The notes: generated from the sequence alone by a model not told the origin. A stretch of DNA of 64,000 nt from an uncultured Candidatus Saccharibacteria bacterium (GCA_964446735.1 CAYUQB010000001.1:444460-508459), one strand, 5' to 3'; positions 19,345 through 37,823 are shown, counted from the stretch's first letter. A program made the numbers and translations.

Positions 19345-20088
19345 ATGATCAGTATCTATACACTTATAAGTGTTATCGCCATCAGTCTCATTTCCTTTGT
19401 GGGTGCTGTAGCCCTCACCCTGAAGGGTGATCTGCTGAAGCGAAGTGTATTCATATTGGTAAGTCTTGCGGTCGGTGCGCTTTTGGGCGATGTATTCGTA
19501 CACATTATTCCGGAAGCGTATGGAGAGCTTGATGATCCGCTTCTGATCTCACTCGCGTTCATCGCAGGCATATTACTATTCTTTGTTCTCGAGAAGGTCT
19601 TACACTGGCATCACCACACCTCTGAACATGTAGAGGAACATCCCCATCCAGTAGGGAAGATGGTGCTCATAGGCGATGGTGTCCATAATTTTATCGATGG
19701 TCTCATCGTTGCGGGAAGTTATCTTGTATCCGTTGAAGTAGGTATCGCGACCACCGTTGCGGTGATTCTTCACGAGATTCCTCAAGAGATCGGCAACTTC
19801 GGTGTCCTCATCCATGCCGGGTATACCAAAGCCAAAGCACTTTGGTATAACTTTCTTTCCGCACTTTCAGCAGTAGTGGGAGCGATTGTTGCTCTTGCCA
19901 TCGGCAGCATGACGGAGACCTTTGCCTTTTGGCTTCTTCCTCTTACCGCGGGAGGATTCATGTACGTTGCCCTCTCCGACCTTATTCCAGAACTGCATAA
20001 GGACCGTCGCCTCAGTCAGGGGGTCATTCAGGTACTCGCCATTATGGTCGGGGTACTCGCGATGACCGCGCTTCTTGTGCTTGAGTAA
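19345..20088 (+). CDS. zupT: ZIP-family zinc transporter (ZupT-like)
   Basis: HNFIDGLIVAGSY...HEIPQEIGNFGVLI motifs, a His-rich loop (HWHHHTSEHVEEHPHP), and 7-8 TM helices. Confidence 0.85.
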   Translation: MISIYTLISVIAISLISFVGAVALTLKGDLLKRSVFILVSLAVGALLGDVFVHIIPEAYGELDDPLLISLAFIAGILLFFVLEKVLHWHHHTSEHVEEHPHPVGKMVLIGDGVHNFIDGLIVAGSYLVSVEVGIATTVAVILHEIPQEIGNFGVLIHAGYTKAKALWYNFLSALSAVVGAIVALAIGSMTETFAFWLLPLTAGGFMYVALSDLIPELHKDRRLSQGVIQVLAIMVGVLAMTALLVLE

Positions 20089-20268
20089 TGTTAGTTGCGA
20101 ACGGGTCGACTGAGAACATTGGGAAATCAAGCCCAGCGGAATCGTCACCAGGAATTTTAGGTTATAAAACTTCTTTGTACGCACCCCGCTGCTAGAGAGG
20201 TGAAGACGTTTACGTCGTCTTTGCGGAGACAGATGGATTATGGCAAGCGTGAATGGTATAGTGCCGCC

Positions 20269-20931
20269 ATGGTTACCGCCGTCATCCCGGTTCGCGGTGG
20301 TTCTCGTCGCCTCAAGGATAAGAATATTCAACCGTTTGGCGACAGCAATTTGTTAGTACACAAGATTCGCCAACTCAAGCAAGTTCCGGCCATTGATTCG
20401 ATTGTAGTATCTTCGGATTCTGAGGTAATGCTTGATATGGCGACACACGAGGGTGTCGTTGCGCATAAGCGTGCTCCAGAATTTTGCGATGAGCAGTCAA
20501 AAACCTTTGGCGAAGTTGTTCGTCATATCTGTGAACAAGTAGAAGGCGACACCATTGTATGGGCGCTCTGCACACTGCCATTTATCGTACCGAAACATTA
20601 TCAAGATATGGTTGATATCCACGAGAGCCGTCTCGGCGAGCATGATTCGGTACTGGCTGCGGAACACTTTAAAAAATATCTCTTTAATGCACAGGGTCCC
20701 GTGAATTTTAAACTCGGCACTGAAGCAGTTGCATCCCAAAATCTACCCGAATTGTTTTGTGTTTACGGAGCGTCAGTTGCACCCCGGAACAAGATGATCG
20801 AGTGGCACCACCACATTGGACAGCATCCGTATCTCTATCCAATCCCCAAAATAAGCGGCATTGATATAGATGACGAGCTTGATATGAAAGTTGCTCGAGC
20901 ATGGTATCCGGACGCGGAACGGTATCTCTAA
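20269..20931 (+). CDS. CMP-nonulosonic acid synthetase-like cytidylyltransferase (NeuA/CMP-KDO synthetase family)
   Basis: N-terminal AVIPVRGGSRRLKDKN (compare AIIPARGGSKGIPRKN). Start placed at MVTAVIPV; the longer ORF from 20200 is possible. Confidence 0.65.
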   Translation: MVTAVIPVRGGSRRLKDKNIQPFGDSNLLVHKIRQLKQVPAIDSIVVSSDSEVMLDMATHEGVVAHKRAPEFCDEQSKTFGEVVRHICEQVEGDTIVWALCTLPFIVPKHYQDMVDIHESRLGEHDSVLAAEHFKKYLFNAQGPVNFKLGTEAVASQNLPELFCVYGASVAPRNKMIEWHHHIGQHPYLYPIPKISGIDIDDELDMKVARAWYPDAERYL

Positions 20932-21081
20932 GAGAAGGTAACGACACAGAAAACCTCCGTTTTGCCGAGATCTTCTCCTGTGGCATCATAAACCCGCACT
21001 GAGGAATGTAACGAAGCAGTATGGTCGCCAGTTATTAGTAGCGTATACTCTCCTGCGACAAGGCACCAATCTATTCTATCT

Positions 21082-21831
21082 ATGAAGGGAATAATCACGG
21101 CAGGAGGAAGCGGCACACGGTTGTATCCACTCACGGCCGCGACGAATAAGCATTTACTGTCGCTCTATGACAAGCCAGTCATTTATTATGCCGTTGATAA
21201 ACTGGTCAATGCGGGAATTGACCAGATAATGATCGTAACCAACCCGCAGCACATCGAGGATTTTGTGAAGCTGTTTGGTTCGGGTAAAGATTTCATTTCG
21301 AAGAAAACAGGCAAACAGATTCAAATTGTCTACACCGTCCAAAACGAACCGAACGGTATCGGACACACACTTTCAGTCGCGCGTGACTATATAGGAAATG
21401 ACTCGTGCCTTCTCTATCTAGGCGACAATGTCTTTGAGGACGATATCGAACCGCATATACGGAATTTCAAGAGCGGAGCTAAAATATTTCTGAAACAGGT
21501 TCCCGATCCAGAGCGATTCGGTATAGCCGAATTAGATAAACGAGGGAGAGTCATCAGCATTGTTGAGAAGCCCAAAAAACCGAAATCGTCGTACGCGGTT
21601 ACTGGTCTCTATATGTACGACAACTCTATTGTTGAGAAATCCCGCCATCAAAAACGCTCTGCACGCGGTGAATTTGAAATCACGGCGCTCAATAATCTCT
21701 ACATCAAAGAGGGGAGAATGCGAGCCGCTATCCTGGAGAAGGAATGGTTTGATATCGGGACCTTTGACAGTTTGCTTGATGCTTCTTTATATATGCGCAA
21801 CAAAAGGAACGGTAAATTGAACCCTCTATGA
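21082..21831 (+). CDS. Sugar-phosphate nucleotidyltransferase (glucose-1-phosphate thymidylyltransferase RmlA-like)
   Basis: MKGIITAGGSGTRLYPLTAATNKHLLSLYDKPVIYY is the RmlA N-terminal signature. Confidence 0.8.
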   Translation: MKGIITAGGSGTRLYPLTAATNKHLLSLYDKPVIYYAVDKLVNAGIDQIMIVTNPQHIEDFVKLFGSGKDFISKKTGKQIQIVYTVQNEPNGIGHTLSVARDYIGNDSCLLYLGDNVFEDDIEPHIRNFKSGAKIFLKQVPDPERFGIAELDKRGRVISIVEKPKKPKSSYAVTGLYMYDNSIVEKSRHQKRSARGEFEITALNNLYIKEGRMRAAILEKEWFDIGTFDSLLDASLYMRNKRNGKLNPL

Positions 21832-22796
21832 GGAACGGCTTCTCTGACGTTGTCTTCGTGACAGGCGGCGCTGGATTCATCGGAAGTAATTATCTCAATA
21901 CCTATGTTCCAAGGTGCCCAGAGCGTCTATTCGTAAATATCGATTGTCTTACCTACGCAGGGAATGTTGAAAATGTAACGGTAGATAAGGAAAAGAACTA
22001 TATTCTTGAAACGGTTGATATACGAGATGTTGAAAAGCTTACGTCGCTTTTTGAGACCTATGCTCCAACCGGCGTTATTCACTTTGCTGCTGAAAGTCAT
22101 GTGGACGTCAGTATTGAGAATCCTGACGTATTTATTGGCACGAACATTGTTGGTACACATAACCTTCTCAAACTTGCACGGGAATATCGCGTGAAGCGGT
22201 TCCATCAGATATCAACAGATGAAGTATATGGAGCGTTATCAGCAGAGGATTCAGCGTTCACAGAAGATGCTCCACTTACTCCCCGAAACCCGTACAGCGC
22301 CTCTAAAGCTGCAGCCGACCTATTAGTGGGGGCATATCATGAGACATTTGGACTTAACACGGTCATTACGCGGTCTAGCAACAACTATGGCCCGAACCAG
22401 GATCTTTCAAAAGTAATTCCCAGTTTTATAACCAAACTGCTCCGTGGTGAGAAGGTTCCGCTCTACGGAGAAGGCGCACAGATGCGCGAATGGGTATACG
22501 TGGGAGATTCTGTTGACGCTATACACCTTGTGTTTGAACAGGGTGTAAACGGTGGGATGTATAACATCGGTAGCCAGCACGAGATGAGCAATTTACAGCT
22601 CACCAAGGCACTTCTTTCGCTCACCGGCCGCGATATGTCCTCTATTTCCTATGTTACTGACCGGTTAGGGCACGATTTCCGTTATTCACTTGATAGTAGT
22701 AAACTCCGAAATGAACTTGGCTGGGTGCCTAAAGTGTCGTTTGACGTTGGATTACGCAACACATTCGAACACTATAAGCGGATACATTCGGCATAA
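21828..22796 (+). CDS. rmlB: dTDP-glucose 4,6-dehydratase (RmlB family SDR)
   Basis: VTGGAGFIGSNY; NIDCLTYAGNVENV; YSASKAAAD (YxxxK); PNQDLSKVIP. Confidence 0.85.
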   Translation: MRNGFSDVVFVTGGAGFIGSNYLNTYVPRCPERLFVNIDCLTYAGNVENVTVDKEKNYILETVDIRDVEKLTSLFETYAPTGVIHFAAESHVDVSIENPDVFIGTNIVGTHNLLKLAREYRVKRFHQISTDEVYGALSAEDSAFTEDAPLTPRNPYSASKAAADLLVGAYHETFGLNTVITRSSNNYGPNQDLSKVIPSFITKLLRGEKVPLYGEGAQMREWVYVGDSVDAIHLVFEQGVNGGMYNIGSQHEMSNLQLTKALLSLTGRDMSSISYVTDRLGHDFRYSLDSSKLRNELGWVPKVSFDVGLRNTFEHYKRIHSA

Positions 22797-22802
22797 GAGA
22801 TT

Positions 22803-25205
22803 ATGGCGACAAAAAAACAAAAACGAGCATATGTAATCGGCGCTGGCATGAGCGGGCTTTCAACTGCGCTCCGTCTTGCAGAGCTTGGAGTACAAACGAC
22901 CGTTATAGAAAAAGAAAAATATGTGGGCGGTATGGCCGGCAGTTTTTCGTGGGGCGAGTTTAAACATCTTGATTATGGACCCCACATCTATCATTCACCC
23001 GATGAGCAACAAGTTGCTCGATGGGAAAAGGAATTCGGCGATCTCTTTTTTAAGAGTGAGCCGTGGGGAAAAAATGTAAAAGGAGAGAACTTTGATCAAT
23101 ATTTTGATTATCCGCTTTCGTATGCCTCACTCAAGAACTTTCCTAAGGAATTGCGTGAGCAGATTCTCGATGAACTTGCTCGGGTAGATATCACCCGGCG
23201 AGCGAAAGCAACAAATTATTCAGAATATGTACGCGAGCTCGTCGGGCCTACTCTTACGAAGATATTCTTTACTGATTACCCACAAAAACTGTGGGGCGTT
23301 TCGGTTGAAGAAATGACCGCGAATTGGGCTCCGAAGCGCGTGACACTTCGCACAAAACAGGAACATGCTCATGCCGGCCAGTGGTGTGCAGTGGGTAAGG
23401 AGGGGTCGGGGGCGATTCTCGAGCGAATGGCAGAGCGCTTTAAAAAAGCCGGCGGCACTTTGCTACTAGGGAGTGCAGTCGCTCGTATTGTGCACTCTCG
23501 TGGTGTGGTAAAGAAACTCATATTACAGAACGGCAAGTCTATTTCCCTTGCTCCCGAAGACGTGGTTGTCTCAACCATGCCCATACATATCCTTGCTGAA
23601 TATCTCGGTATTAAAAATAATCTCAAATATCGGGGAGCGAAACTCGTGTTTGCGGCTCTCAATACTCCAGTTGCGATACCTGATAAGTTTAAGTATTTGT
23701 ACTACGACGCTCCAGACATCATCTTCCATCGCGTTAGCGAACAAAAGAAATTCTGTGCAAACGGGTTTCCGAAGAACAAGACAACTTTGTCGTGTGAGAT
23801 TTCGTATATGCAGGGAGACGCGCGAGACAAAATGGATGAGAAAAAAATCATGGAGAAAGCGGCAGAAGACCTCATAAAAGTTGGACTTGCGAAGGAAGGA
23901 CAAATCTACGATCTCAAAATGGTGTCCCTGCCTTTCATGTACCCCCTCATGGTAAAGGGAAGTGAGAAGGAGCTTGCAGAGGTGCGTAGTGCGCTTTCGG
24001 CATATACTCAGCTTTATTTCATCGGTACAGGGGGCAATTTCCACTACGCTGACCTGCAGATCTTGAACGTGCAGGGAATTGATCTTGCAGAACGGCTTGC
24101 AAGCGCAGAGGCAGGGGAGAGCGAGAAAGAACTCGTGAAGCAGGATTACACACACGAATTCAATAAGAAAGTTAAGTTCGGCTCTTTCGAAGTATCAGAT
24201 GACGCGCCTGCTTTTATTATTGCAGAGATAGGTCACAACCATAATGGCAGTTTGAAGCTCGCATATGAGCTTATTGATAAAGCAAAAGAAGTTGGCTGCG
24301 CTGCGGCGAAATTCCAGACATACAGCGCAGATCGTGTTTCAAAAGCAGTGAAAGGCAACCGGTATGCGGAGGAACTGGTAGATCAAGAGGAATCTATTTA
24401 TGATACGTACACTCGTCTACGGCTTGATAAAGAAGCGCATAAGAAAATATTTGCTTATGCGAAAAAAAAGGGAATAGACGTTTTCTCCACGCCGTCTGAT
24501 ATCGAGAGTGTCGAACTGCTCGAATCTCTCGGCTGTCCCTATTACAAAATTGCCTCAATGGATCTCGTGAACCTTCCGCTTATTCGTAGGGTGGCTAGTA
24601 CCGGAAAGCCACTCATCATGTCGACTGGCATGTCCACGCTCGGTCAGATTGAAGACGCGGTAAACGCCGTACGAGAGACGGGTAATCGGAACTTGGTGCT
24701 GCTCCATTGCGTATCGGCATACCCTGCTTCTTCTCAGGAGGTACACATGAGAGTCATGGATACGCTTCGACAGGCATTTGGCGTGCCTGTCGGCTTCTCA
24801 GATCACACTATAGGACTCACCGCGTCTACGGTTGCGCTTGCGCAAGGCGCATGCTCAATAGAGCGGCACTTCTCTCTCGATCGTTTTATGGAAGGACCTG
24901 ACCATATTTTTTCTTCTGACGTCGAAGAAATGAGAGAGCTGGTACGTTTGAGCCATCTTATTCCACTTATCAGAGGACGGGGCGAGAAGGTCATTCTTCC
25001 GAGCGAGACAGAAACGGCTAACCGTTTTAAAAAGTGCTTATATGCAAGAAAGGATATCCGTCGCGGACAAAAGATAACCGCTGCCCACCTCATACTCAAA
25101 GGCCCTGGTGGCGGCATATTACCTAAATACGAAGATATAGTGATTGGGAAAATCGCACGTCGAGCCATTAAACGTGATCACCCTATTCGTTGGGAAGATA
25201 TATAA
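22803..25205 (+). CDS. Fusion protein: N-terminal FAD-dependent UDP-galactopyranose-mutase-like domain (about aa 1-440) plus C-terminal NeuB-type N-acylneuraminate/nonulosonate synthase with SAF domain (about aa 455-800)
   Basis: N-terminus: YVIGAGMSGLSTALRLAELGVQTTVIEKEKYVGGMAGSF and FTDYPQKLWGVSVEEM (compare Glf YTEKQWG). C-terminus: IIAEIGHNHNGSLKLAYELIDKAKEVGCAAAKFQTY, a TIM-barrel NeuB fold, and the SAF tail KGPGGGILPKYEDIVIGKIARRAI. Confidence 0.75.
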   Translation: MATKKQKRAYVIGAGMSGLSTALRLAELGVQTTVIEKEKYVGGMAGSFSWGEFKHLDYGPHIYHSPDEQQVARWEKEFGDLFFKSEPWGKNVKGENFDQYFDYPLSYASLKNFPKELREQILDELARVDITRRAKATNYSEYVRELVGPTLTKIFFTDYPQKLWGVSVEEMTANWAPKRVTLRTKQEHAHAGQWCAVGKEGSGAILERMAERFKKAGGTLLLGSAVARIVHSRGVVKKLILQNGKSISLAPEDVVVSTMPIHILAEYLGIKNNLKYRGAKLVFAALNTPVAIPDKFKYLYYDAPDIIFHRVSEQKKFCANGFPKNKTTLSCEISYMQGDARDKMDEKKIMEKAAEDLIKVGLAKEGQIYDLKMVSLPFMYPLMVKGSEKELAEVRSALSAYTQLYFIGTGGNFHYADLQILNVQGIDLAERLASAEAGESEKELVKQDYTHEFNKKVKFGSFEVSDDAPAFIIAEIGHNHNGSLKLAYELIDKAKEVGCAAAKFQTYSADRVSKAVKGNRYAEELVDQEESIYDTYTRLRLDKEAHKKIFAYAKKKGIDVFSTPSDIESVELLESLGCPYYKIASMDLVNLPLIRRVASTGKPLIMSTGMSTLGQIEDAVNAVRETGNRNLVLLHCVSAYPASSQEVHMRVMDTLRQAFGVPVGFSDHTIGLTASTVALAQGACSIERHFSLDRFMEGPDHIFSSDVEEMRELVRLSHLIPLIRGRGEKVILPSETETANRFKKCLYARKDIRRGQKITAAHLILKGPGGGILPKYEDIVIGKIARRAIKRDHPIRWEDI

Positions 25206-25220
25206 CTTTTACTGCACATC

Positions 25221-26081
25221 ATGAGCAGTAACCCTCAAAAAATAATAGTAACGGGAGGTTCAGGCTTCATTGGTTCAAATCTTGTTGAGGAACTTCGTAC
25301 GCAGGGGTACGACGTAGAAAGTATTACATCAGCTGAGAATGACATCCGCGATACCGAGTTACTCAAAGAAAGGTTTGCTGGCGCACACATAGTATTCCAC
25401 TTGGCAGGTCTCTCACGAGTAAAGGACGCACTTGACCGTCCACTGGAGTCGCATGAAGTAAATGTAACCGGCACGCTCTCTGTACTTGAGGCGGCAAGGC
25501 ACGCGGGAGTAAAACGGGTTGTGTTCGCGTCCTCAAGCGCCGTTTACGGTCCACAAAACGACCTGCCTTTTCGAGAAAATATGAGTGTACGGCCCGAACA
25601 TCCGTACGCGCTCCAAAAATATATCGGTGAGATGTATTGCAAACTCTATAGTGAATTGTTTGGGCTAGAGACAGTATGTCTGCGTTATTGCAATGTTTAT
25701 GGCAGCGAGGATGCATTTAAGAATCGTGGGACCACGGTTATTTCGCATTTTCTCACCTTACAAAAGGAGGGGAACCCGCTCACTATAGCTGGAAACGGAG
25801 AACAAAAGCTTGATTTTGTACACGTGCGCGACGTCACTCGCGCAAATGTGCTTGCCGCGAAAAGTGAGCTTGTTGGGAAGGGAGAAATTATCAATATAGG
25901 TTCTGGAGAAAACACCTCAATACTTGAGCTCGCGGAGCTCATCGGTGGGCATGTTGAATTTATGGAAGTGCAGACAGACCAGCAGAGCACCTTAGCAGAT
26001 ATAACCCTTGCGAAGAAGCTGCTTGACTGGGAGCCGCAAATTTCCCTCGAAGAGGGAATAGCTGAACTCAAAATTGTTTGA
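25221..26081 (+). CDS. NAD-dependent epimerase/dehydratase (UDP-sugar 4-epimerase-like SDR)
   Basis: IIVTGGSGFIGSNLVEEL; YALQKYIGE (YxxxK). Confidence 0.8.
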   Translation: MSSNPQKIIVTGGSGFIGSNLVEELRTQGYDVESITSAENDIRDTELLKERFAGAHIVFHLAGLSRVKDALDRPLESHEVNVTGTLSVLEAARHAGVKRVVFASSSAVYGPQNDLPFRENMSVRPEHPYALQKYIGEMYCKLYSELFGLETVCLRYCNVYGSEDAFKNRGTTVISHFLTLQKEGNPLTIAGNGEQKLDFVHVRDVTRANVLAAKSELVGKGEIINIGSGENTSILELAELIGGHVEFMEVQTDQQSTLADITLAKKLLDWEPQISLEEGIAELKIV

Positions 26082-26133
26082 AACATATAACGCGCGCCAT
26101 CACGGCTACGATTTCTAGTATTCGATCTTCAGG

Positions 26134-26219
26134 CGGAGGAGGTGGGATTCGAACCCACGAGGCCTTGCGACCTGGCGGTTTTCAAGACCGCTCGTTTCGA
26201 CCACTCACGCACTCCTCCG
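26134..26219 (-). tRNA. tRNA-Ser (anticodon TGA), class II with long variable arm
   Basis: Reverse complement GGAGGAG-TG-CGTGAGTGGTCGAAACGAG-CGGTCTTGAAAACCG-CCAGGTCGCAAGGCCTCG-TGGGTTCGAATCCCA-CTCCTCC-G. Confidence 0.85.
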
Positions 26220-29797: not shown

Positions 29798-29869
29798 GCC
29801 CCCATAGCTTAATGGATAAAGCTGCGGACTTCTAAGCCGTCGATGTTGGTTCGATTCCAGCTGGGGGCA
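29798..29869 (+). tRNA. tRNA-Arg (anticodon TCT)
   Basis: GCCCCCA-TA-GCTTAATGGATAAAGC-T-GCGGA-CTTCTAA-GCCGT-...-GTTGGTTCGATTCCAGC-TGGGGGC-A. Confidence 0.8.
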
Positions 29870-29893
29870 CAAGATGATACGCTCCAACAGAAT

Positions 29894-29975
29894 GGGCATG
29901 TGGCGGAATTGGTATACGCGTACGCCTCAGAAGCGTATGGAGCAATCCTTGGAGGTTCGAGTCCTCTCATGCCCA
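29894..29975 (+). tRNA. tRNA-Leu (anticodon CAG), class II
   Basis: GGGCATG-TG-GCGGAATTGGTATACGC-G-TACGC-CTCAGAA-GCGTA-TGGAGCAATCCTT-GGAGGTTCGAGTCCTCT-CATGCCC-A. Confidence 0.8.
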
Positions 29976-29979
29976 CTAG

Positions 29980-30564
29980 TTACGACAAGCGTGACTTGAT
30001 CGTCGCGTTGATCTCACGCAAGCTTTTTTCGTCCTTGAAATCAATGGAACTGCGATCAATATTCAGCACATGAGGATGTGAGGAGAGAAGTGAGCAGTAG
30101 CTTTCCTGGACTGCAAGTGAACGCACCAGCGCCTCCTCATGCTGTTCAGTACTTCGCCCTCGTGTACGGATTGCGTCGCGCAACCATTCGCGTGAGGCAA
30201 CCAGCAAGACTATGAGATCGGAGTCGAGTCCTTGGAGTTTTTGTATTACTTCGCGAAGCAGTACGTGATGCTGTTCTGCCTCAGTCTGCATAATTGCTTC
30301 CGGGCTGAGTGCAGCGCCGTCAACGTATACATCAAGTCCGCTTTCAGAAATGACACGAGCTCGGGAAAGCTGGTTGGAATATCGGTCTACAAAATATTCG
30401 TAGCGTTGCACCGGATCATTGGAGAATACATTCGTGAATATTTCTTCTGGAATGACACCTTCCTCACCTTCAAGAAAGGCAGGCATGCCATTGAGCGCTG
30501 CCAACTGAGCAACAAGAAACGATTTGCCTACTCCCGACGTACCAACGATGGAGATAACGGCCAT
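29980..30564 (-). CDS. Deoxynucleoside kinase family P-loop kinase
   Basis: ISIVGTSGVGKSF P-loop; ...DRYS...; LIVLLVASREWLRDAIRTRGRSTEQ (compare dNK D-I-Y-L...RIxxRGRxxE). The longer ORF's N-terminus is a tRNA read-through artefact. Confidence 0.55.
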   Translation of the reverse strand: MAVISIVGTSGVGKSFLVAQLAALNGMPAFLEGEEGVIPEEIFTNVFSNDPVQRYEYFVDRYSNQLSRARVISESGLDVYVDGAALSPEAIMQTEAEQHHVLLREVIQKLQGLDSDLIVLLVASREWLRDAIRTRGRSTEQHEEALVRSLAVQESYCSLLSSHPHVLNIDRSSIDFKDEKSLREINATIKSRLS

Positions 30565-30566
30565 GT

Positions 30567-30638
30567 GCGCGCTGTAGGACTCGAACCTACGACCATCCCG
30601 GTGTAAACGGGGCGCTCTACCAACTGAGCTAAGCGCGC
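30567..30638 (-). tRNA. tRNA-Val (anticodon TAC)
   Basis: Reverse complement GCGCGCT-TA-GCTCAGTTGGTAGAGC-G-CCCCG-TTTACAC-CGGGA-TGGTC-GTAGGTTCGAGTCCTAC-AGCGCGC-A. Confidence 0.8.
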
Positions 30639-30677
30639 GTGTTTGAACCATAGCGCACCTGGGGTATTTTTTGAAGG

Positions 30678-30953
30678 ATGGAGCGACTCTATGTCATTGT
30701 CGGAGGACGGGTGCAAATGGTGATGTATCGGGACTTTACGCAGCGCAAGGCAAGCGCTCTGGGACTCACCGGCTTCGTTCGCAATCTTCGAGACGGTACG
30801 GTGGAGGTGCTCGCTGAAGGGTCGCGCGAAAGACTTGAGCGCTTACTTTCGAAACTTGAACGAGGACCCCTCCTGGCCCACGTAGAACAACTAAACGTGT
30901 CGTGGCTTCCAGCGACCGGTGAATTCACGAAGTTCCGTATCGCATACGAGTAG
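30678..30953 (+). CDS. acyP: Acylphosphatase
   Basis: VIVGGRVQMVMYRDFTQRKASALGLTGFVRNLRDGTVEV is the acylphosphatase signature. Confidence 0.8.
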   Translation: MERLYVIVGGRVQMVMYRDFTQRKASALGLTGFVRNLRDGTVEVLAEGSRERLERLLSKLERGPLLAHVEQLNVSWLPATGEFTKFRIAYE

Positions 30954-30968
30954 TGCTAGGGTAAGGGC

Positions 30969-31709
30969 ATGAACCTACCCATTCTCTATGAGGATGCCGA
31001 CGTTGTTGCGGTCGATAAGCCCGCGGGCGTGATGACACACCCGGATGGACGATCACCCGAAGAAACCGCAAGCGACTGGTTTCGTAATCGCTACCCGCAG
31101 AGTGCATCGGTAGGGGAAGTACAGCGACTACAAGACGGAACCGAACTGCCTCGTCCTGGCGTCGTACATCGACTCGATCGCGAAACATCGGGAGTACTCA
31201 TCTTTGCAAAGACTCAAGAAGCACACGCTGCACTCAAGCATGCGTTCCAGTCGCACGATGCCAAGAAAACCTATCTGGCGTTCGTGTATGGTGTACCGAA
31301 AGAACGTCGCGGAGTGATTGATTTTCCCATTGGACGCTCGAATAAGGATTTCCGACTCCGAAGCGCTCAACCGAAAGCGCGCGGTACGTTGCGTGAAGCC
31401 GTCACCCGCTGGGAAACCATTTCTGACATTGGCACACACGCACTCTTGAGGGTCATGCCGGAAACTGGTCGTACCCACCAGATCCGCGTGCATCTGAAAG
31501 CCATTCATCACCCAGTGGTCTGCGACCCGCTCTATGCTCCAAACAAGAGCTGCGATCTTGGATTTGATCGCGTGGGACTCCATGCATATGAGCTCGCTAT
31601 CTTGCTTCCATCAGGAGACAGGAAAACTATTCGGGCATATCCACCGCCTAATCTTGCCGCTGCTATGGAGCGATTCCCGGAAACCAAGGAATTTCTTGCC
31701 CCGATGTAG
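30969..31709 (+). CDS. RluA-family RNA pseudouridine synthase
   Basis: ADVVAVDKPAGVMTHP...HRLDRETSGVLIFAKT (catalytic Asp motif). Confidence 0.8.
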   Translation: MNLPILYEDADVVAVDKPAGVMTHPDGRSPEETASDWFRNRYPQSASVGEVQRLQDGTELPRPGVVHRLDRETSGVLIFAKTQEAHAALKHAFQSHDAKKTYLAFVYGVPKERRGVIDFPIGRSNKDFRLRSAQPKARGTLREAVTRWETISDIGTHALLRVMPETGRTHQIRVHLKAIHHPVVCDPLYAPNKSCDLGFDRVGLHAYELAILLPSGDRKTIRAYPPPNLAAAMERFPETKEFLAPM

Positions 31710-31733
31710 GGCTCGTGCTACAGTCCCTGCACT

Positions 31734-32246
31734 ATGCAGGCAGTTATTACTCCCGTTAAGACCGAGGAGCGCGCGAAGCTCGGCATTCGTCCGGGTGACA
31801 CCGTCCGTGTGCACCAGAAGGTCATCGAGAAAGGAAAGACTCGTATTCAGGTATACGAGGGTCTGGTGATCGCGGTAAAGCACGGCACAGAGGCGGGCGG
31901 TACCTTTACGGTACGCGCTACCATGTCCGGCATTGGCGTTGAGAAGATTTTCCCGCTCTACTCTCCGGTCATCGACAAGATCGAGATCGTTCGCCGCTCC
32001 AAGGTACGTCGCGCAAAACTGTACTTCATCCGCGAGAAGGTTGCCCGCGAAGTGCGTCGCCAGCTCCGTAATATGCGCATGATGAATATCTCCACTGACG
32101 ACTTTAAGGAAGAAGAGAAAGTCGAAGAGCCGTCCCAAGGTGTAGACGAGGCTCCGATTGAGGTGGGGGAGCCAGAGACTCCGGAAGAGGTAGTCGCGGC
32201 AGAAGAAGCCGAGACCATCGAGGAAAAGAAAGAGGAGGCGGCATAG
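31734..32246 (+). CDS. rplS: 50S ribosomal protein L19 with an acidic C-terminal extension
   Basis: [34 protein letters not shown]...[11 protein letters not shown], then a Glu-rich tail of about 50 aa. Confidence 0.85.
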
Positions 32247-32299
32247 GCCGCCGTTCTCTTTATTTGTTTGGACGCGTGCGCTATAGTGCCGGAACACCT

Positions 32300-32381
32300 G
32301 CCCAGGTGGCGGAATTGGTATACGCGTATGCTTGAGGTGCATATGCCGCAAGGCTTGGAGGTTCGAGTCCTCTCCTGGGCA
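32300..32381 (+). tRNA. tRNA-Leu (anticodon GAG), class II
   Basis: GCCCAGG-TG-GCGGAATTGGTATACGC-G-TATGC-TTGAGGT-GCATA-TGCCGCAAGGCTT-GGAGGTTCGAGTCCTCT-CCTGGGC-A. Confidence 0.8.
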
Positions 32382-32414
32382 CACTGATTGCGAATCCATC
32401 GCGATTCAGTTCAT

Positions 32415-32488
32415 GGCGGCGTTAGCTCAGTTGGTAGAGCTCTTGGTTGTGGTCCAAGTGGTCGTGGGTTCGAGCCCCACACGTCGCC
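32415..32488 (+). tRNA. tRNA-His (anticodon GTG) with genome-encoded G-1 opposite C73
   Basis: G-GCGGCGT-TA-GCTCAGTTGGTAGAGC-T-CTTGG-TTGTGGT-CCAAG-TGGTC-GTGGGTTCGAGCCCCAC-ACGTCGC-C. Confidence 0.85.
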
Positions 32489-32504
32489 CCGGTATACTGC
32501 ATAC

Positions 32505-35384: not shown

Positions 35385-35807
35385 ATGGCAAAAGCAGTAA
35401 AGAAAATTAAGCTCCAGATTCCGGCGGGTAAAGCGACGCCGGCTCCTCCGGTGGGTACCGTCCTCGGTCCTGCGGGTGTGAACATTGGTGATTTCGTCAA
35501 TAAGTTCAATGAAGCAACCCGTGAACGCATGGGAGAGATCGTGCCGGTTGAGATGACGGTCTATGACGACCGCACCTTCTCGCTCGTCTACAAAGTGTCG
35601 CCCATGTCCCAGCTCATCTTGAAGGCTATTGGAGCAGATAAGGGTTCGGGCAAGACACCGTTTTCTAAAGTAGGAACACTCACGCGTGCGAAGGTTCGTG
35701 AAGTAGCCGAAAAGAAGATGCCTGATCTCTCAGCATCGTCAATCGAGGCTGCAGAGCGTACGGTTGAAGGTACGGCACGTTCCATGGGCGTTACCATCGA
35801 GAAATAA
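35385..35807 (+). CDS. rplK: 50S ribosomal protein L11
   Basis: [45 protein letters not shown]... Confidence 0.9.
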
Positions 35808-35816
35808 CCCATTACG

Positions 35817-35855
35817 AAAGAGGCCCTGGCTTCCCGCCAGGGCCTCTTTCGTTTA
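35817..35855 (+). terminator. Strong rho-independent terminator directly after rplK (aaagaggccctggc-ttcc-cgccagggcctcttt plus cgttt)
   Basis: 12-13 bp GC-rich perfect stem plus T-tract, seen in the sequence. Confidence 0.6.
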
Positions 35856-35865
35856 CTGTGAGCGC

Positions 35866-36609
35866 ATGGAGATAGAGAGCTTCAAAGTAGAAACCTTGCT
35901 TCCACCCAAGGATGATCTGCTCGCAAAAATACGAGCCTCTGCCCTCACTCTCAACGAGCATGATGTCGTTGCGATTTCCTCAAAGGTGGTGGCGATTGGA
36001 GAAGGAAGTGTTATTCCCATGGAAGGGGTGGTGCAGGACGAGTTGATTGCACAAGAATCAGATCAGTATTTAGAGCGTCGTGAGACACCGGGAGGGTTTG
36101 TCATGCACACGCTCAAGAATGGCACACTCATTCCAAATGCCGGTATTGATCCCTTCGCGGGGCATTATGTTCTGTGGCCAAGAGATCCGCAGAATAGTGC
36201 GGATGAACTGCTTGCTTGGTTCAAGACGGAGTATGGGATTGAACACTTATATCTGGTCATCACTGACTCACGGAGTGTGGTACTGCGTCGTGGCGTAGTT
36301 GGTATCGCAATCGCATGGGCAGGATTCGAACCAATCTACGACAACCGAATGCGTACCGATCTTCTCGGTAATCCAAGTAATGGGAGTCAGACCAATATTC
36401 CAGACGCCCTTGCCGCTGCGGCCGTGTACGTCATGGGCGAGGCCAATGAAGGCACGCCGCTCGTACGCATTCGTAATGCGCCGTACGTACAAAAGACACA
36501 GACCGGGCGCAAGAAAGAATTTAATACCTACACGTTCAGTATTGAGGAAGATATCTTTGCACCATTCCTTTCACGTGCACCGTGGAAGCAGGGTGCTACG
36601 GGCGGGTAA
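35866..36609 (+). CDS. CofE-family gamma-glutamyl ligase-like protein (F420-0:gamma-glutamyl ligase / FolC2-like), copy 1
   Basis: ...TLKNGTLIPNAGIDPF... (the NAGID motif of CofE-like proteins) and the overall CofE fold pattern. Converges on folA. Confidence 0.55.
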   Translation: MEIESFKVETLLPPKDDLLAKIRASALTLNEHDVVAISSKVVAIGEGSVIPMEGVVQDELIAQESDQYLERRETPGGFVMHTLKNGTLIPNAGIDPFAGHYVLWPRDPQNSADELLAWFKTEYGIEHLYLVITDSRSVVLRRGVVGIAIAWAGFEPIYDNRMRTDLLGNPSNGSQTNIPDALAAAAVYVMGEANEGTPLVRIRNAPYVQKTQTGRKKEFNTYTFSIEEDIFAPFLSRAPWKQGATGG

Positions 36610-37113: not shown

Positions 37114-37815
37114 TTAGAACCCAGCATTTTTGAAAAGCGGGTAATACATATCCTCTTTTGCGGGCATGATGAGTTCACGATTCGGATGTCGGCTCGTGAA
37201 CGTGACTGGTGCGCCAGTGATAAGGACAAGCGGTTGCCGTTCGTTCCCCTCTCCCATAAGGATGCCAGCAGTAGCAGCAAGGCCGTCAGCAAGATTCGTA
37301 CGCGTCATACGAAGGGATCGACCGAATAAGTCTTTTTTCCCGGCGTATTCACGAAGTCCGGTGAAGCCGGCATATCCGAGCGCAGATCCTGTGACGCCAG
37401 CACGAAGAGGGAGTGGGCAGCTGTCCGTAATGAGGATCCCAAGTTTTTTTCGGCCGTACGCCTTCTTGAGTTTTTTGTGTAGCTCGGCTGCAGACGCGTA
37501 GCTGTCTTTTGGAAGGAGCACTAGTTTTTTATTTGCATTCGATTCATCTATGCCAGCGTTGGCCATGAGCATCCCATCTTTACGGGTGAGCCACACGTAT
37601 TTCGTTTTGAGTGCCGCATCGCTTTCTGATTGTATTCGCTCGTCCTTGGCGCGTTGGGTAGTAAGCGGAACGGTGCGGCCCTCCGCAAGAGCTACTACCT
37701 TTGATGCTATAGCGATGATGCTGTGCTCTGGGACTTCGGGAAGTGCCTGTGTAATGAAAGAAACGAGGTCGTCACCCTCGTGAAAAATGCCGGTATGTAT
37801 CGGGCGAGACTGCAT
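37114..37815 (-). CDS. CofE-family gamma-glutamyl ligase-like protein, copy 2
   Basis: ...WLTRKDGMLMANAGIDESNANKKLVLLP.. is the CofE-like motif. Start placed at MQSRPIHTGIFHEGDDLVSFI. Confidence 0.55.
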   Translation of the reverse strand: MQSRPIHTGIFHEGDDLVSFITQALPEVPEHSIIAIASKVVALAEGRTVPLTTQRAKDERIQSESDAALKTKYVWLTRKDGMLMANAGIDESNANKKLVLLPKDSYASAAELHKKLKKAYGRKKLGILITDSCPLPLRAGVTGSALGYAGFTGLREYAGKKDLFGRSLRMTRTNLADGLAATAGILMGEGNERQPLVLITGAPVTFTSRHPNRELIMPAKEDMYYPLFKNAGF

Positions 37816-37823
37816 GGTAGGGA

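What the first reader, a model, noticed from the sequence alone, without database searches (positions are those of the whole stretch)
22803..25205. Fusion of a UDP-galactopyranose-mutase-like FAD domain to a NeuB-type nonulosonic acid synthase
This single 800 aa ORF has an N-terminal Rossmann/FAD domain with the Glf-type motif (FTDYPQKLWG, compare YTEKQWG). Its C-terminal half is a complete NeuB/PseI/LegI-type synthase with the SAF domain. NeuB-family enzymes are normally stand-alone at about 340 aa. The fusion hints at a coupled furanose/flavin-dependent step feeding nonulosonate synthesis, or an unrecognised variant of the pathway.
Basis: partly seen in the sequence, partly recalled or inferred. 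Interest (0 to 1): 0.7.

Follow-up and report, generated by a model that had tools for sequence, protein, structure and literature searches.

The report
Flavin mutase-like domain fused to NeuB
This is a real, anciently fused two-domain enzyme, a UDP-galactopyranose-mutase-like flavoprotein joined to a sialic-acid-type (NeuB) synthase, found in over a hundred very different microbes and never characterised, and it probably marks an undescribed route to nine-carbon acidic surface sugars.

Summary
ORF 22803..25205 (+) encodes 800 aa with no internal stop. Residues 1-433 form an FAD-binding domain of the UDP-galactopyranose mutase (UGM) family. Residues 434-469 are a linker. Residues 470-800 are a complete NeuB + SAF synthase. 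It is not a frameshift artefact: full-length homologues (31-68% identity) occur in at least 103 species-level genomes, including Patescibacteria, Nitrospirota, Elusimicrobia, SAR11, SAR86, Prochlorococcus, two archaeal MAGs and cultured Arcobacter and Rheinheimera. The two halves co-evolve (Mantel r 0.89). Both essential UGM arginines are present in 71/71 fusions, the other mapped UGM contacts in at least 68/71, and every checked NeuB metal/PEP ligand in 71/71. In the window the gene lies in a lower-GC five-gene islet (cytidylyltransferase, RmlA, RmlB, fusion, SDR) next to a tRNA-Ser. The nucleotide-releasing enzyme that normally precedes NeuB (NeuC/LegG type) is absent here and in 82 of 84 loci. 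My best hypothesis, inferred and not shown, is that the flavin domain displaces dTDP, opens the sugar ring and hands the free 6-deoxyhexose to the NeuB domain. Rivals are a true furanose mutase or a redox flavoenzyme. No paper in the searchable library describes this architecture.

The parts
20200..20931 (+). Cytidylyltransferase (CTP_transf_3; weak PseF / CMP-Kdo synthetase resemblance). Predicted to activate the ulosonic acid with CMP.
   Evidence: Pfam CTP_transf_3 E 5.9e-16. NCBIfam PseF 58.8 bits, far below its cut-off. A CTP_transf_3 gene accompanies the fusion in most related loci.
21082..21831 (+). Glucose-1-phosphate thymidylyltransferase-like protein (RmlA-like, short form of 249 aa).
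   Evidence: Pfam NTP_transferase E 4e-56. TIGR01207 rmlA 251.7 bits, below the cut-off of 360.65. Overlaps the next gene by 4 nt.
21828..22796 (+). dTDP-glucose 4,6-dehydratase (RmlB).
   Evidence: TIGR01181 387.8 bits, above the cut-off of 365.1. It ends 6 nt before the fusion's start codon.
22803..25205 (+). The 800-aa fusion ORF (stop codon included).
22803..24101 (+). N-domain (residues 1-433): FAD-binding flavoprotein of the UGM family. Features: GxGxxG at 13-18, E36, His loop G59-P60-H61...H64, FFxxYxxKxWG at 155-165, R179, Y300, R310, E332, Y380, Y415, D417.
   Evidence: Pfam GLF above its gathering score. The 26 best PDB profile hits are all UGMs, E down to 9.5e-26. Foldseek TM 0.70-0.77 to AfUGM/TcUGM over ~490 columns. 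Residues were mapped to UGM Table 2 of PMC3322874. The two arginines are in 71/71 fusions and the other mapped contacts in at least 68/71.
24102..24209 (+). Inter-domain linker (residues 434-469).
   Evidence: pLDDT is below 50 at residues 438-448. Across 71 fusions the linker is 33-52 aa (median 34) with only 24% mean identity, against 43% and 52% for the two domains.
24210..24986 (+). NeuB-type TIM-barrel synthase domain (residues 470-728). Residues E475, K503, Q505, K582, S585, D587, S607, S638, Y640, H668, H689, D700.
   Evidence: Pfam NeuB E 8e-85. 178-182 bits to N. meningitidis NeuB and ~178 bits to C. jejuni PseI. Foldseek TM 0.83-0.87. Catalytic residues are invariant in 71/71 fusions.
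25035..25202 (+). SAF (antifreeze-like) domain (residues 745-800). It carries Gly767 where NeuB (R314) and PseI have Arg.
   Evidence: Pfam SAF E 1.4e-10. Alignments to 1xuu and 8h2c. Position 767 is G in 61, S in 6 and A in 4 of 71 fusions, never R.
25221..26081 (+). Extended SDR (286 aa; epimerase/reductase family). Predicted 4-ketoreductase or epimerase of the pathway.
   Evidence: Pfam Epimerase E 5.8e-59. Best NCBIfam hits are GalE, TviC and LegB, all below their cut-offs. Starts 15 nt after the fusion's stop codon.
26132..26218 (-). tRNA-Ser(tga) at the downstream edge of the lower-GC islet. Possible integration site.
   Evidence: ARAGORN. GC is 0.466-0.474 over 20001-26000 and 0.49-0.54 in the adjacent bins.

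Best explanation
The gene encodes a genuine, anciently fused bifunctional enzyme of a non-canonical CMP-ulosonic (nonulosonic-type) acid pathway. In this genome it is the fourth gene of a compact, probably horizontally acquired islet: cytidylyltransferase, RmlA-like, RmlB, fusion, SDR.

Proposed pathway:
1. RmlA and RmlB make dTDP-4-keto-6-deoxyglucose. RmlB reaches equivalog level and RmlA family level.
2. The SDR reduces or epimerises it, either at this stage or after condensation (inferred).
3. The N-terminal UGM-like domain binds the dTDP-sugar through the same Arg/Tyr/Trp set that UGM uses. Binding residues are shown by conservation. The chemistry is inferred by analogy with UGM: reduced FAD N5 attacks C1, dTDP leaves, and the flavin-iminium opens the ring.
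4. Instead of re-closing to a furanose, the adduct is hydrolysed and the free, open-chain 6-deoxyhexose passes to the fused NeuB domain (inferred).
5. The NeuB domain condenses it with phosphoenolpyruvate at its metal site (H668/H689) to give a 3,9-dideoxy-non-2-ulosonic acid. The catalytic residues are shown to be conserved. The product identity is inferred.
6. The cytidylyltransferase makes the CMP-sugar.

On this reading the flavin domain replaces the NeuC/LegG/PseG-type nucleotide-releasing step that every characterised NulO pathway has and that these clusters lack.
For: A real, conserved fusion:
- More than 100 full-length homologues and 103 relatives in species-representative genomes across many phyla.
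- The halves co-evolve: Mantel r 0.886, with 0 of 999 permutations reaching it.
- Linker length is conserved while linker sequence is not.
- The AF2 model has mean pLDDT 87 with a flexible linker.

The N-domain is a UGM-family NDP-sugar binder:
- Pfam GLF is above its gathering score.
- UGMs are the top 26 PDB profile hits, while other flavoproteins match only residues 3-60.
- Foldseek places UGMs ahead of PPO-type oxidases.
- About 14 of the 20 UGM active-site positions in Table 2 of PMC3322874 are kept. These include both essential arginines (KpR174 = R179, KpR280 = R310), the His loop, the uridine-stacking F/F/Y/W, Y300, Y380, Y415, E332 and D417. The two arginines are in 71/71 fusions and the rest in at least 68/71.
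- The closest stand-alone relatives sit in NTP-transferase, 4,6-dehydratase, reductase, [UGM-like], GT operons, so the lineage works on NDP-(6-deoxy)hexoses.

The NeuB half is competent: all checked metal and PEP ligands are invariant.

The pathway-hole argument:
- The islet's four co-directional, almost abutting genes plus the cytidylyltransferase cover every step except nucleotide release.
- NeuC/LegG-like genes occur in only 2 of 84 loci, and the two hits at E 1e-55 served as the positive control.
- No such enzyme is among the 30 commonest neighbour families.

Precedent and mechanism:
- Adapter enzymes for steps adjacent to the synthase are repeatedly fused in NulO pathways (PMC3438082).
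- UGM chemistry does generate a ring-opened C1 iminium after UDP displacement (PMC7662398).

Clade-specific changes fit a changed reaction outcome and a changed sugar: KpR343/AfR447 is T/S/A/G and never R, and NeuB R314 is G/S/A and never R.
Against: - There is no biochemical evidence at all. Hydrolytic release from a UGM-type flavin adduct has no characterised precedent that I could find.
- The stand-alone relatives look like ordinary mutases, so the simplest assumption is that the fused domain is one too.
- RmlA/RmlB-like genes lie within six genes of the fusion in only about a third of loci, so the NDP-sugar substrate is not universal or is supplied from elsewhere.
- The tightest partner of the fusion, a ~355-aa NAD(P)-Rossmann protein present in 65 of 75 loci, is absent from this window and has no role in my scheme.
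- Twelve loci carry a second NeuB domain fused to the cytidylyltransferase, which the scheme does not explain.
- PseG-type hydrolases were not searched for explicitly.
- No glycosyltransferase lies in the 64-kb window.
- UGM needs reduced flavin, and no reductase is assigned.
Confidence: 0.45

Rival explanations
1. The N-domain is a bona fide NDP-sugar pyranose-to-furanose mutase, comparable to Glf or to the dTDP-fucopyranose mutase Fcf2. It makes, for example, dTDP-6-deoxyhexofuranose from the RmlA/RmlB/SDR product. The NeuB domain independently makes a nonulosonic acid from another precursor. The two are fused only because both sugars go into the same surface glycan, so the fusion serves co-expression and stoichiometry.
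For: Nearly the full UGM active site is conserved. The closest stand-alone relatives sit in NTP-transferase, dehydratase, reductase, [UGM-like], GT2 operons typical of furanose pathways. The window order RmlA, RmlB, [UGM-like], SDR resembles the known dTDP-D-fucofuranose gene set RmlA/RmlB/Fcf1/Fcf2 (that comparison is from my own knowledge).
Against: The fusion is ancient and strictly co-inherited (Mantel r 0.89), and the closest relatives of the N-domain are almost all fused. That is more than co-expression usually explains. No glycosyltransferase accompanies the islet in the window. The NeuB domain would then have no source of free aldose, because NeuC/LegG is absent. The strictly conserved UGM arginine KpR343 is lost in every fusion yet retained in the stand-alone relatives.
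Confidence: 0.22
2. The N-domain is a redox flavoenzyme, an oxidase or dehydrogenase of the amine-oxidase/PPO superfamily. It oxidises a hydroxyl of the sugar or of the finished ulosonic acid to a keto group. That group is then transaminated (by the class-III aminotransferase seen in many loci) or re-reduced (by the Rossmann partner or an SDR).
For: Pfam Amino_oxidase, DAO and FAD_binding_2 also match. An Aminotran_3 gene (26 loci), a ~355-aa NAD(P)-binding protein (65 of 75 loci) and a classical SDR (48 loci) are frequent neighbours. From my own knowledge, pairs of an FAD dehydrogenase and a class-III aminotransferase are known in aminoglycoside biosynthesis.
Against: Outside the first ~60 residues the domain matches only UGMs, which are non-redox enzymes, and not oxidases. 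The residues that are invariant are exactly those that bind the nucleotide diphosphate and uridine in UGM. The window's islet has no aminotransferase and no Rossmann partner, yet keeps the fusion intact.
Confidence: 0.15
3. The NeuB half does not make a nine-carbon acid from a 6-deoxyhexose. It condenses PEP with a different aldehyde, such as a heptose-derived or other NDP-sugar-derived aldose, so the product has another chain length and the class of compound has not been described.
For: The domain is below the equivalog cut-offs for both NeuB and PseI. Its sugar pocket is altered at E134 (D587) and R314 (G767). GHMP-kinase and heptose-type genes, C-methyltransferases and radical-SAM enzymes accompany the fusion in subsets of loci.
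Against: In the window the only sugar-nucleotide genes present are RmlA/RmlB-type, which points to a 6-deoxyhexose. All characterised NeuB-family enzymes known to me use hexose-level acceptors.
Confidence: 0.1
4. Artefact: two adjacent genes merged by a sequencing or assembly error that removed a stop codon or shifted the frame.
For: None beyond the prior that long fusion ORFs in MAGs are sometimes artefacts. A few database entries are split or truncated (P0068, P0091, P0105, P0127).
Against: The same architecture and length appear in 71 distinct full-length sequences from independent assemblies, single-cell genomes and two cultured isolates. The identical ORF was recovered from an independent read-set assembly, SRR8426593. 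The linker aligns without gaps to 61-69% homologues. P0127 is itself a contig-end truncation of a fusion.
Confidence: 0.01

Closest known systems
NeuB / PseI / LegI nonulosonic acid synthases (Pfam PF03102 + SAF; PDB 1xuu, 8h2c)
   Same: Same fold (TM 0.83-0.87). Same TIM barrel plus SAF layout. Same metal ligands (H215/H236 = H668/H689) and the same PEP-binding Lys/Ser/Gln set. 31-34% identity.
   Different: It carries a 470-residue N-terminal extension. It is below the equivalog cut-offs of both TIGR03569 and TIGR03586. It is equally distant from NeuB and PseI. It has an invariant D in place of E134, and G/S/A in place of the SAF-loop Arg (R314) that both NeuB and PseI have.
UDP-galactopyranose mutase (Glf/UGM; PF03275; PDB 3gf4, 4dsg, 3ute) and relatives such as dTDP-fucopyranose mutase Fcf2
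   Same: Three-domain UGM fold. FAD-binding motif. His loop above the flavin. Uridine-stacking F/F/Y/W. Both essential arginines. Phosphate-binding tyrosines.
   Different: Only 16-20% identity. TIGR00031 scores 50 bits against a cut-off of 304. The strictly conserved KpR343/AfR447 is replaced by T/S/A/G. It is fused to NeuB. In the window it is not next to a glycosyltransferase. Mutase activity is untested.
'PRK07208'-type uncharacterised FAD-dependent oxidoreductases (NCBIfam NF005547/NF005548, named 'hypothetical protein')
   Same: These are the closest stand-alone relatives of the N-domain (25-32% identity, full-length alignment). They share Y159, K162, W164, R310, E332, Y380 and Y415.
   Different: They are stand-alone proteins of 420-480 aa. 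They keep the UGM-type 'GRxGxFxYxNMD' arginine. They sit next to glycosyltransferases and not next to NeuB. The window protein scores 166 bits against a cut-off of 380.
NeuC / LegG (hydrolysing NDP-sugar 2-epimerases) and PseG (UDP-sugar hydrolase): the nucleotide-releasing step of known NulO pathways
   Same: The proposed functional role is the same: to convert an NDP-sugar into the free aldose that the synthase needs.
   Different: There is no sequence or fold relationship, and the chemistry would be entirely different (flavin N5 covalent catalysis instead of hydrolysis or elimination). The analogy is an inference from the pathway gap, not a demonstrated activity.
Adapter-enzyme fusions in sialic acid pathways (mammalian GNE epimerase/kinase; Leptospira NeuB-phosphatase)
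   Same: An enzyme of the step immediately before or after the synthase is fused into one polypeptide (PMC3438082).
   Different: The partner domain is different (a flavoprotein), and so is the predicted precursor (a dTDP-6-deoxyhexose).

Membership tests
NeuB-family nonulosonic acid synthase | NeuB TIM-barrel domain followed by a SAF/antifreeze-like domain | tested here: met
   PF03102 E 8e-85 and PF08666 E 1.4e-10. Foldseek TM 0.83-0.87 to 1xuu, 4ipj and 8h2c.
NeuB-family nonulosonic acid synthase | Metal-binding histidines and PEP-binding residues (NmNeuB E25, K53, Q55, K129, S132, S154, S213-D214-H215, H236, D247) | tested here: met
   These correspond to E475, K503, Q505, K582, S585, S607, S666-D667-H668, H689 and D700. 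The checked positions are present in 71/71 fusions. E134 is conservatively replaced by an invariant D587.
NeuB-family nonulosonic acid synthase | Equivalog-level match to N-acetylneuraminate synthase (TIGR03569) or pseudaminic acid synthase (TIGR03586) | tested here: not met
   341.8 bits against a cut-off of 399.65, and 309.7 bits against a cut-off of 340.25. It is a family member but not an orthologue of either characterised enzyme.
NeuB-family nonulosonic acid synthase | SAF-loop arginine (NmNeuB R314) that reaches the sugar-binding pocket | tested here: not met
   NeuB has 'vkRPGnG', PseI has 'svRPSfG' and the window has 'lkGPGgG'. Position 767 is G in 61, S in 6 and A in 4 of 71 fusions.
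NeuB-family nonulosonic acid synthase | PEP + aldose condensation activity | not testable with these tools
   Needs an enzyme assay.
UDP-galactopyranose mutase (UGM/Glf) family | GLF domain match and three-domain UGM fold with an N-terminal FAD Rossmann motif | tested here: met
   PF03275 34.8 bits, above the gathering score of 26.3. The top 26 PDB profile hits are UGMs, and the match to 4dsg is nearly full length. Foldseek TM 0.70-0.77. GxGxxG and E36 are conserved.
UDP-galactopyranose mutase (UGM/Glf) family | Two essential diphosphate-binding arginines (KpR174/AfR182 and KpR280/AfR327) | tested here: met
   R179 and R310, mapped by alignment to KpUGM, TcUGM and AfUGM. Their essentiality is taken from PMC3322874. 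Both are present in 71/71 fusions.
UDP-galactopyranose mutase (UGM/Glf) family | Remaining conserved active-site set (His loop, F151/F152/Y155/W160, Y314, Y349, E301, D351, R343) | tested here: inconclusive
   All are conserved (H61/H64, F155/F156/Y159/W164, Y380, Y415, E332, D417) except R343/R447, which is T409 here and T/S/A/G across the family.
UDP-galactopyranose mutase (UGM/Glf) family | Equivalog-level match to UGM (TIGR00031) | tested here: not met
   50.3 bits against a cut-off of 303.75.
UDP-galactopyranose mutase (UGM/Glf) family | Pyranose/furanose mutase activity with reduced flavin | not testable with these tools
   Needs an enzyme assay.
Canonical NulO pathways (Neu5Ac, Pse, Leg) | A dedicated nucleotide-releasing enzyme (NeuC/LegG 2-epimerase fold, or PseG) encoded with the synthase | tested here: not met
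   A NeuC-like gene is found in only 2 of 84 loci (L029, L074; E 1e-55, which also served as the positive control) and none in the 64-kb window. None is among the annotated neighbour clusters. PseG was not searched for explicitly.
Canonical NulO pathways (Neu5Ac, Pse, Leg) | UDP- or GDP-GlcNAc-derived precursor with DegT-type aminotransferase and N-acetyltransferase | tested here: not met
   The window islet has only RmlA-like, RmlB and an SDR. No aminotransferase or acetyltransferase lies in the window.
Canonical NulO pathways (Neu5Ac, Pse, Leg) | CMP-activating cytidylyltransferase (CTP_transf_3) | tested here: met
   Gene 20200-20931 has PF02348 at E 5.9e-16. A CTP_transf_3 gene sits next to the fusion in most loci.

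The most novel reading that the evidence does not exclude
The UGM-like domain is a new kind of nucleotide-sugar 'unmasking' enzyme. It uses covalent flavin-N5 chemistry not to contract the ring but to expel dTDP and deliver a ring-opened aldose directly to a fused PEP-aldol synthase. This would define a fourth route to nonulosonic acids, one independent of NeuC, PseG and LegG. Its product would be a non-aminated 3,9-dideoxy-nonulosonic acid, with further tailored versions in loci that carry the Rossmann partner, aminotransferase and methyltransferases. That sugar would decorate the surfaces of CPR bacteria, SAR11, SAR86, Prochlorococcus and others.
Probability: 0.35. Interest if true: 0.8.

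Novelty: new variant of a known kind. Interest (0 to 1): 0.66.

Why it matters
Nonulosonic acids (sialic, pseudaminic and legionaminic acids) sit at the outer tip of microbial surface glycans. They govern phage, predator and host recognition. All characterised routes share the same logic: NDP-sugar tailoring, then nucleotide release by a hydrolase or epimerase, then NeuB-type condensation, then CMP activation.

This gene family shows a widespread alternative that has been annotated only automatically. It occurs in at least 103 species-level genomes, including some of the most abundant marine bacteria and the minimal-genome Patescibacteria. In it the release enzyme is missing and a mutase-like flavoprotein is welded to the synthase.

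If the proposed coupling is right, three things follow. It adds a new reaction outcome to N5-covalent flavin catalysis. It predicts a new family of 9-deoxy acidic sugars starting from dTDP-glucose. It also gives a single-gene marker for finding those sugars in metagenomes.

Even if the flavin domain proves to be an ordinary mutase, the conserved fusion and its conserved ~355-aa Rossmann partner define an uncharacterised glycan pathway. Two cultured hosts, Arcobacter iocasae and Rheinheimera sp., make it experimentally tractable.

Tried and rejected
1. Frameshift or lost stop codon. Rejected on comparative evidence.
2. The N-domain as a generic amine oxidase, protoporphyrinogen oxidase or phytoene desaturase, as some automatic annotations say ('SpsE/protoporphyrinogen oxidase'). 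Those families match only the first ~60 residues in profile search and rank below UGMs by fold.
3. A split version of the fusion, with a stand-alone UGM-like gene next to a stand-alone NeuB. The closest stand-alone relatives (P0158, P0159) sit next to glycosyltransferases and not NeuB, and the apparent stand-alone P0127 is a truncated fusion.
4. Searching the window for the family's usual partners (~355-aa Rossmann protein, adh_short SDR, Aminotran_3, DegT, ABC exporter, KpsC/S-like). None is present.
5. Identifying the Rossmann partner through PDB sequence search. Only NAD-binding-domain-level hits came back (TrkA, alanine dehydrogenase), so its function remains open.
6. Promoter and terminator scans of the islet. 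Counts were no better than shuffled sequence, so they are uninformative.
7. Naming the source organism from the protein cluster record. No name is on record. Assignment to Patescibacteria rests only on the nearest homologues and the gene content.
8. Nine literature searches and four papers read. None describes a UGM/FAD-NeuB fusion, including the large NulO-synthase phylogeny PMC8208679.
9. The N-domain acting on the CMP-ulosonic acid. Rejected on chemical grounds, because the anomeric C2 is a quaternary centre bearing a carboxylate. This was not tested.


Full report
1. THE OBSERVATION

Pfam finds a full-length NeuB domain (residues 490-728, E 8e-85) and a SAF domain (745-800). In the N-half it finds NAD_binding_8, Amino_oxidase, DAO and, above its curated threshold, the GLF (UDP-galactopyranose mutase) domain at residues 155-338 (34.8 bits against 26.3). 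NCBIfam places the C-half between N-acetylneuraminate synthase (341.8 bits, cut-off 399.65) and pseudaminic acid synthase (309.7 bits, cut-off 340.25). It places the N-half closest to the uncharacterised 'PRK07208' flavoproteins (165.6 bits), with only 50 bits to canonical UGM (cut-off 303.75).

2. NOT AN ARTEFACT

A search of 5.8 billion proteins returned more than 100 proteins of ~780-820 aa that carry both halves, at 38-68% identity to the window protein. They are annotated only as 'N-acetylneuraminate synthase', 'FAD-dependent oxidoreductase' or 'SpsE/protoporphyrinogen oxidase'. The identical ORF was also found in an independent read-set assembly.

A scan of one genome per species (185,579 species) found 103 relatives at 31-68% identity. 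They include Patescibacteria, Nitrospiraceae, Elusimicrobia, Planctomycetes, Omnitrophota, Magnetococcales, Zetaproteobacteria, Terriglobia, SAR11, SAR116, SAR86, Prochlorococcus and Synechococcus. Two are archaeal MAGs and two are cultured strains, Arcobacter iocasae KX21116 and Rheinheimera sp. YQF-1.

In 71 distinct full-length sequences the pairwise identities of the two halves are tightly correlated (Mantel r = 0.886, with 0 of 999 permutations reaching it). The linker is 33-52 residues (median 34) but only 24% identical on average, against 43% for the N-half and 52% for the C-half. This pattern points to one ancient fusion inherited or transferred as a unit, with both halves under constraint.

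When the N-half alone is compared with 1.84 billion cluster representatives, the best ~45 are almost all fused proteins or fragments of them. Stand-alone relatives appear only below E of about 1e-40, at 25-32% identity.

3. THE N-DOMAIN

A family profile of the N-half hits UGMs as the 26 best PDB entries (E down to 9.5e-26), and the match to T. cruzi UGM runs almost full length. Carotenoid desaturases, PPO, LSD1 and amino-acid oxidases match only residues 3-60, which is the dinucleotide-binding motif.

An AlphaFold2 model built on the family alignment has mean pLDDT 87.2 and pTM 0.57, with residues 438-448 below 50. It shows two well-folded domains. Its N-half superposes on A. fumigatus and T. 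cruzi UGM over ~490 columns (TM 0.70-0.77). That is ahead of the first non-UGM flavoprotein, which appears at rank 44.

I mapped the family to the active-site table (Table 2) of PMC3322874, using the alignments.
- The His loop corresponds to G59-P60-H61 and H64.
- The uridine-contacting KpF151/F152/Y155/W160 correspond to F155/F156/Y159/W164.
- AfY104 corresponds to Y103.
- The mobile-loop arginine KpR174/AfR182 corresponds to R179.
- AfY317, which binds the alpha-phosphate, corresponds to Y300.
- KpR280/AfR327 corresponds to R310.
- KpE301 corresponds to E332, KpY314 to Y380, KpY349 to Y415 and KpD351 to D417.

R174 and R280 are the two residues whose alanine variants inactivate KpUGM (PMC3322874). 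R179 and R310 are present in 71 of 71 fusions, and the other mapped contacts are present in at least 68 of 71.

The clear exception is the strictly conserved KpR343/AfR447. It is T409 here and T/S/A/G, never R, across the family. The stand-alone PRK07208-type relatives keep the UGM-like 'GRxGxFxYxNMD'.

I conclude that the domain binds a pyrimidine nucleotide-diphospho-sugar over a flavin in the same way as UGM. That much rests on conservation and fold. What it does with the sugar is not established.

4. THE C-DOMAIN

The C-half is 31-34% identical to N. meningitidis NeuB and C. jejuni PseI and scores about 178 bits against each. It superposes on them at TM 0.83-0.87. The metal ligands (H668, H689) are present in 71 of 71 fusions. 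So are the residues that align with NmNeuB E25, K53, Q55, K129, S132, S154 and D247.

Two family-specific changes lie in the sugar pocket. NmNeuB E134 is an invariant Asp (D587). The SAF-loop Arg (R314 in NeuB; PseI also has Arg there) is G/S/A (G767 in the window). The domain therefore looks like an active PEP-aldol synthase with a different acceptor sugar, possibly one that lacks the 2-acetamido group. That last point is an inference.

5. CONTEXT IN THE WINDOW

The gene sits in a five-gene, co-directional islet.
- 20200-20931: cytidylyltransferase (CTP_transf_3).
- 21082-21831: RmlA-like.
- 21828-22796: RmlB (TIGR01181, 387.8 bits, above its cut-off).
- 22803-25205: the fusion.
- 25221-26081: extended SDR.

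RmlA and RmlB overlap by 4 nt. The gaps on either side of the fusion are 6 nt and 15 nt. GC is 0.466-0.474 across 20-26 kb and 0.49-0.54 in the adjacent bins. A tRNA-Ser lies 50 nt beyond the last gene. Together these suggest horizontal acquisition.

Everything else examined in the 64 kb is housekeeping: DnaN, PBP1, RuvB, PilB, PolA, the pilM/N genes, ThyA, SHMT, several aminoacyl-tRNA synthetases, RecA and FtsK. I found no glycosyltransferase, aminotransferase or acetyltransferase.

6. CONTEXT ACROSS THE FAMILY

I called ORFs in 83 loci, clustered them by BLASTP and annotated the cluster representatives. Five contexts also carried precomputed Pfam labels.

Of 75 loci with a complete fusion, 65 have a ~355-aa protein within four genes. 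It lies directly downstream in 49, directly upstream in 8, at +2 in 6 and at +4 in 2. Its only recognisable feature is an NAD(P) Rossmann domain.

Other frequent neighbours are:
- a classical adh_short SDR (directly upstream in 23 loci);
- CTP_transf_3 cytidylyltransferases;
- a second NeuB domain fused to CTP_transf_3 (12 loci);
- a class-III aminotransferase (26 loci);
- a fused ABC exporter (33 loci);
- RmlA-like genes (26 loci);
- extended SDRs and dehydratases;
- DegT aminotransferases;
- methyltransferases, radical-SAM enzymes, RmlC and RmlD.

The window carries a minimal version. It lacks the Rossmann partner, the adh_short SDR, Aminotran_3, DegT and the exporter anywhere in its 64 kb.

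A NeuC/LegG-type hydrolysing 2-epimerase normally accompanies NeuB-type synthases. It was found in only 2 of 84 loci. The query was an E. coli NeuC sequence recalled from memory, and it was validated by those two hits at E 1e-55.

The closest stand-alone relatives of the N-domain sit in operons with the order NTP-transferase, 4,6-dehydratase-like, RmlD-like reductase, [UGM-like], GT2, GT1, and there is no NeuB. That is what one expects of NDP-(6-deoxy)hexose pyranose/furanose mutases that feed glycosyltransferases.

7. MECHANISM

Established knowledge covers both halves. In UGM, reduced FAD N5 attacks C1, UDP leaves, and the flavin-iminium opens the ring before re-closure (PMC7662398). NeuB-type enzymes need a free aldose in its open-chain form, and known pathways obtain it with NeuC, LegG or PseG (general knowledge of the Neu5Ac, Pse and Leg pathways).

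In the window's islet every step from Glc-1-P to a CMP-ulosonic acid has a candidate enzyme except nucleotide release. The one unassigned domain is a UGM-like NDP-sugar-cleaving flavoprotein fused directly to the synthase. My best explanation (confidence about 0.45) is therefore that the N-domain expels dTDP, opens the ring and delivers the free 6-deoxyhexose to the NeuB domain, with hydrolysis of the adduct replacing ring contraction. The product would be a 3,9-dideoxy-nonulosonic acid, which is then activated with CMP.

The clade-specific loss of KpR343 and of NeuB R314 is compatible with a changed reaction outcome and a changed sugar. The precedent of adapter-enzyme fusions in NulO pathways (PMC3438082) fits as well.

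What is shown: the domain identities, the conservation of the binding and catalytic residues, the co-evolution of the halves, the operon context and the absence of NeuC-type genes. What is inferred: the substrate, the hydrolytic outcome, channelling between the domains and the product.

Rival explanations:
- A true furanose mutase fused for co-expression (0.22). The stand-alone relatives favour this.
- A redox flavoenzyme that creates a keto group for the aminotransferase or the reductases (0.15). The neighbours favour this, but the UGM-specific residue set argues against it.
- A synthase with a different acceptor and chain length (0.10).
- An artefact (0.01).

Three things remain unexplained: the role of the Rossmann partner and why this genome lacks it, the second NeuB domain in 12 loci, and the source of reduced flavin.

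8. COMPARISON WITH WHAT IS KNOWN, AND NOVELTY

The C-half is a member of the NeuB family but is not an orthologue of NeuB or PseI. The N-half is a member of the UGM superfamily but is not an orthologue of Glf. The pathway context fails two defining features of the canonical NulO routes: the nucleotide-release enzyme, and GlcNAc-derived precursors with DegT-type aminotransferases and acetyltransferases.

Nine full-text searches and four papers, including a large-scale phylogeny of NulO synthases (PMC8208679), gave no description of this architecture. The library does not cover most subscription journals, so a report elsewhere cannot be excluded.

I rate it a new variant of a known kind. It is a nonulosonic-type pathway with an undescribed, widely distributed fused flavoprotein step. 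Interest is 0.66.

Noticed in passing
window 20001-26218: The five-gene sugar islet has lower GC (0.466-0.474) than the adjacent bins (0.49-0.54). It ends 50 nt before a tRNA-Ser(tga) gene on the opposite strand (26132-26218). This looks like a small horizontally acquired islet at a tRNA site. No integrase or flanking repeats were looked for.
   Followed up: partly
related loci L001-L083, e.g. L036 ORF 2 and L001 10400-11440; absent from the window: A ~355-aa protein with only a mid-chain NAD(P) Rossmann signature (weak F420_oxidored, Shikimate_DH and AlaDh_PNT_C matches) and an unrecognisable N-terminal ~140 residues lies within four genes of the fusion in 65 of 75 loci, directly downstream in 49. 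It is the tightest partner of the fusion, it is uncharacterised, and it is missing from this genome's 64-kb window.
   Followed up: partly
L014, L020, L021, L030, L031, L033, L036, L045, L049, L060, L070 (e.g. L021 ORF 13, 586 aa): In 12 loci the cytidylyltransferase that follows the fusion is itself fused to a second, apparently intact NeuB domain (NeuB + CTP_transf_3). These clusters therefore encode two NeuB-type domains. I have no explanation for this.
   Followed up: partly
window 44417-47830 (+): A 1137-aa class-I aminoacyl-tRNA synthetase (tRNA-synt_1 with Anticodon_1, Ile/Val/Leu type) has a histidine phosphatase domain (His_Phos_1, residues 502-671, E 1.4e-32) inserted in the middle of its catalytic domain. 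This is an unusual architecture.
   Followed up: no
window 35764-36609 (+) and 37114-37908 (-): Two paralogous F420-0:gamma-glutamyl ligase-like (CofE/F420_ligase) genes lie about 500 nt apart on opposite strands, in a genome that otherwise looks like a reduced Patescibacteria genome.
   Followed up: no
window residue 189 of the fusion (nt 23367-23369): The window protein is the only one of 71 fusions with Ala at a position where the other 70 have Phe. That position aligns with KpUGM Y185 on the loop following the mobile-loop arginine.
   Followed up: no
L029 7232-8326 and L074 1855-2958: These are the only two fusion loci that also encode a NeuC/LegG-like hydrolysing 2-epimerase (33% identity to E. 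coli NeuC, E 1e-55). They may be hybrid clusters or may carry a second, canonical NulO pathway.
   Followed up: no
L001/L006 (Parcubacteria Gr01-1014_8): Besides the fusion cluster, the same locus has a stand-alone NeuB with PseB- and PseC-like genes and an acetyltransferase. It also has a KpsC/KpsS-type (Capsule_synth) gene, which is a candidate ulosonic-acid transferase. So a CPR genome appears to encode two separate NulO-type pathways.
   Followed up: no
protein P0142 (1141 aa) and P0187 (837 aa): These are longer relatives of the N-domain with additional, unexamined C-terminal regions. They may represent further fusion architectures of this flavoprotein clade.
   Followed up: no
window 29798-32490: Five tRNA genes (Arg-tct, Leu-cag, Val-tac, Leu-gag, His-gtg) are interspersed with short ORFs just downstream of the pilM/N genes.
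   Followed up: no
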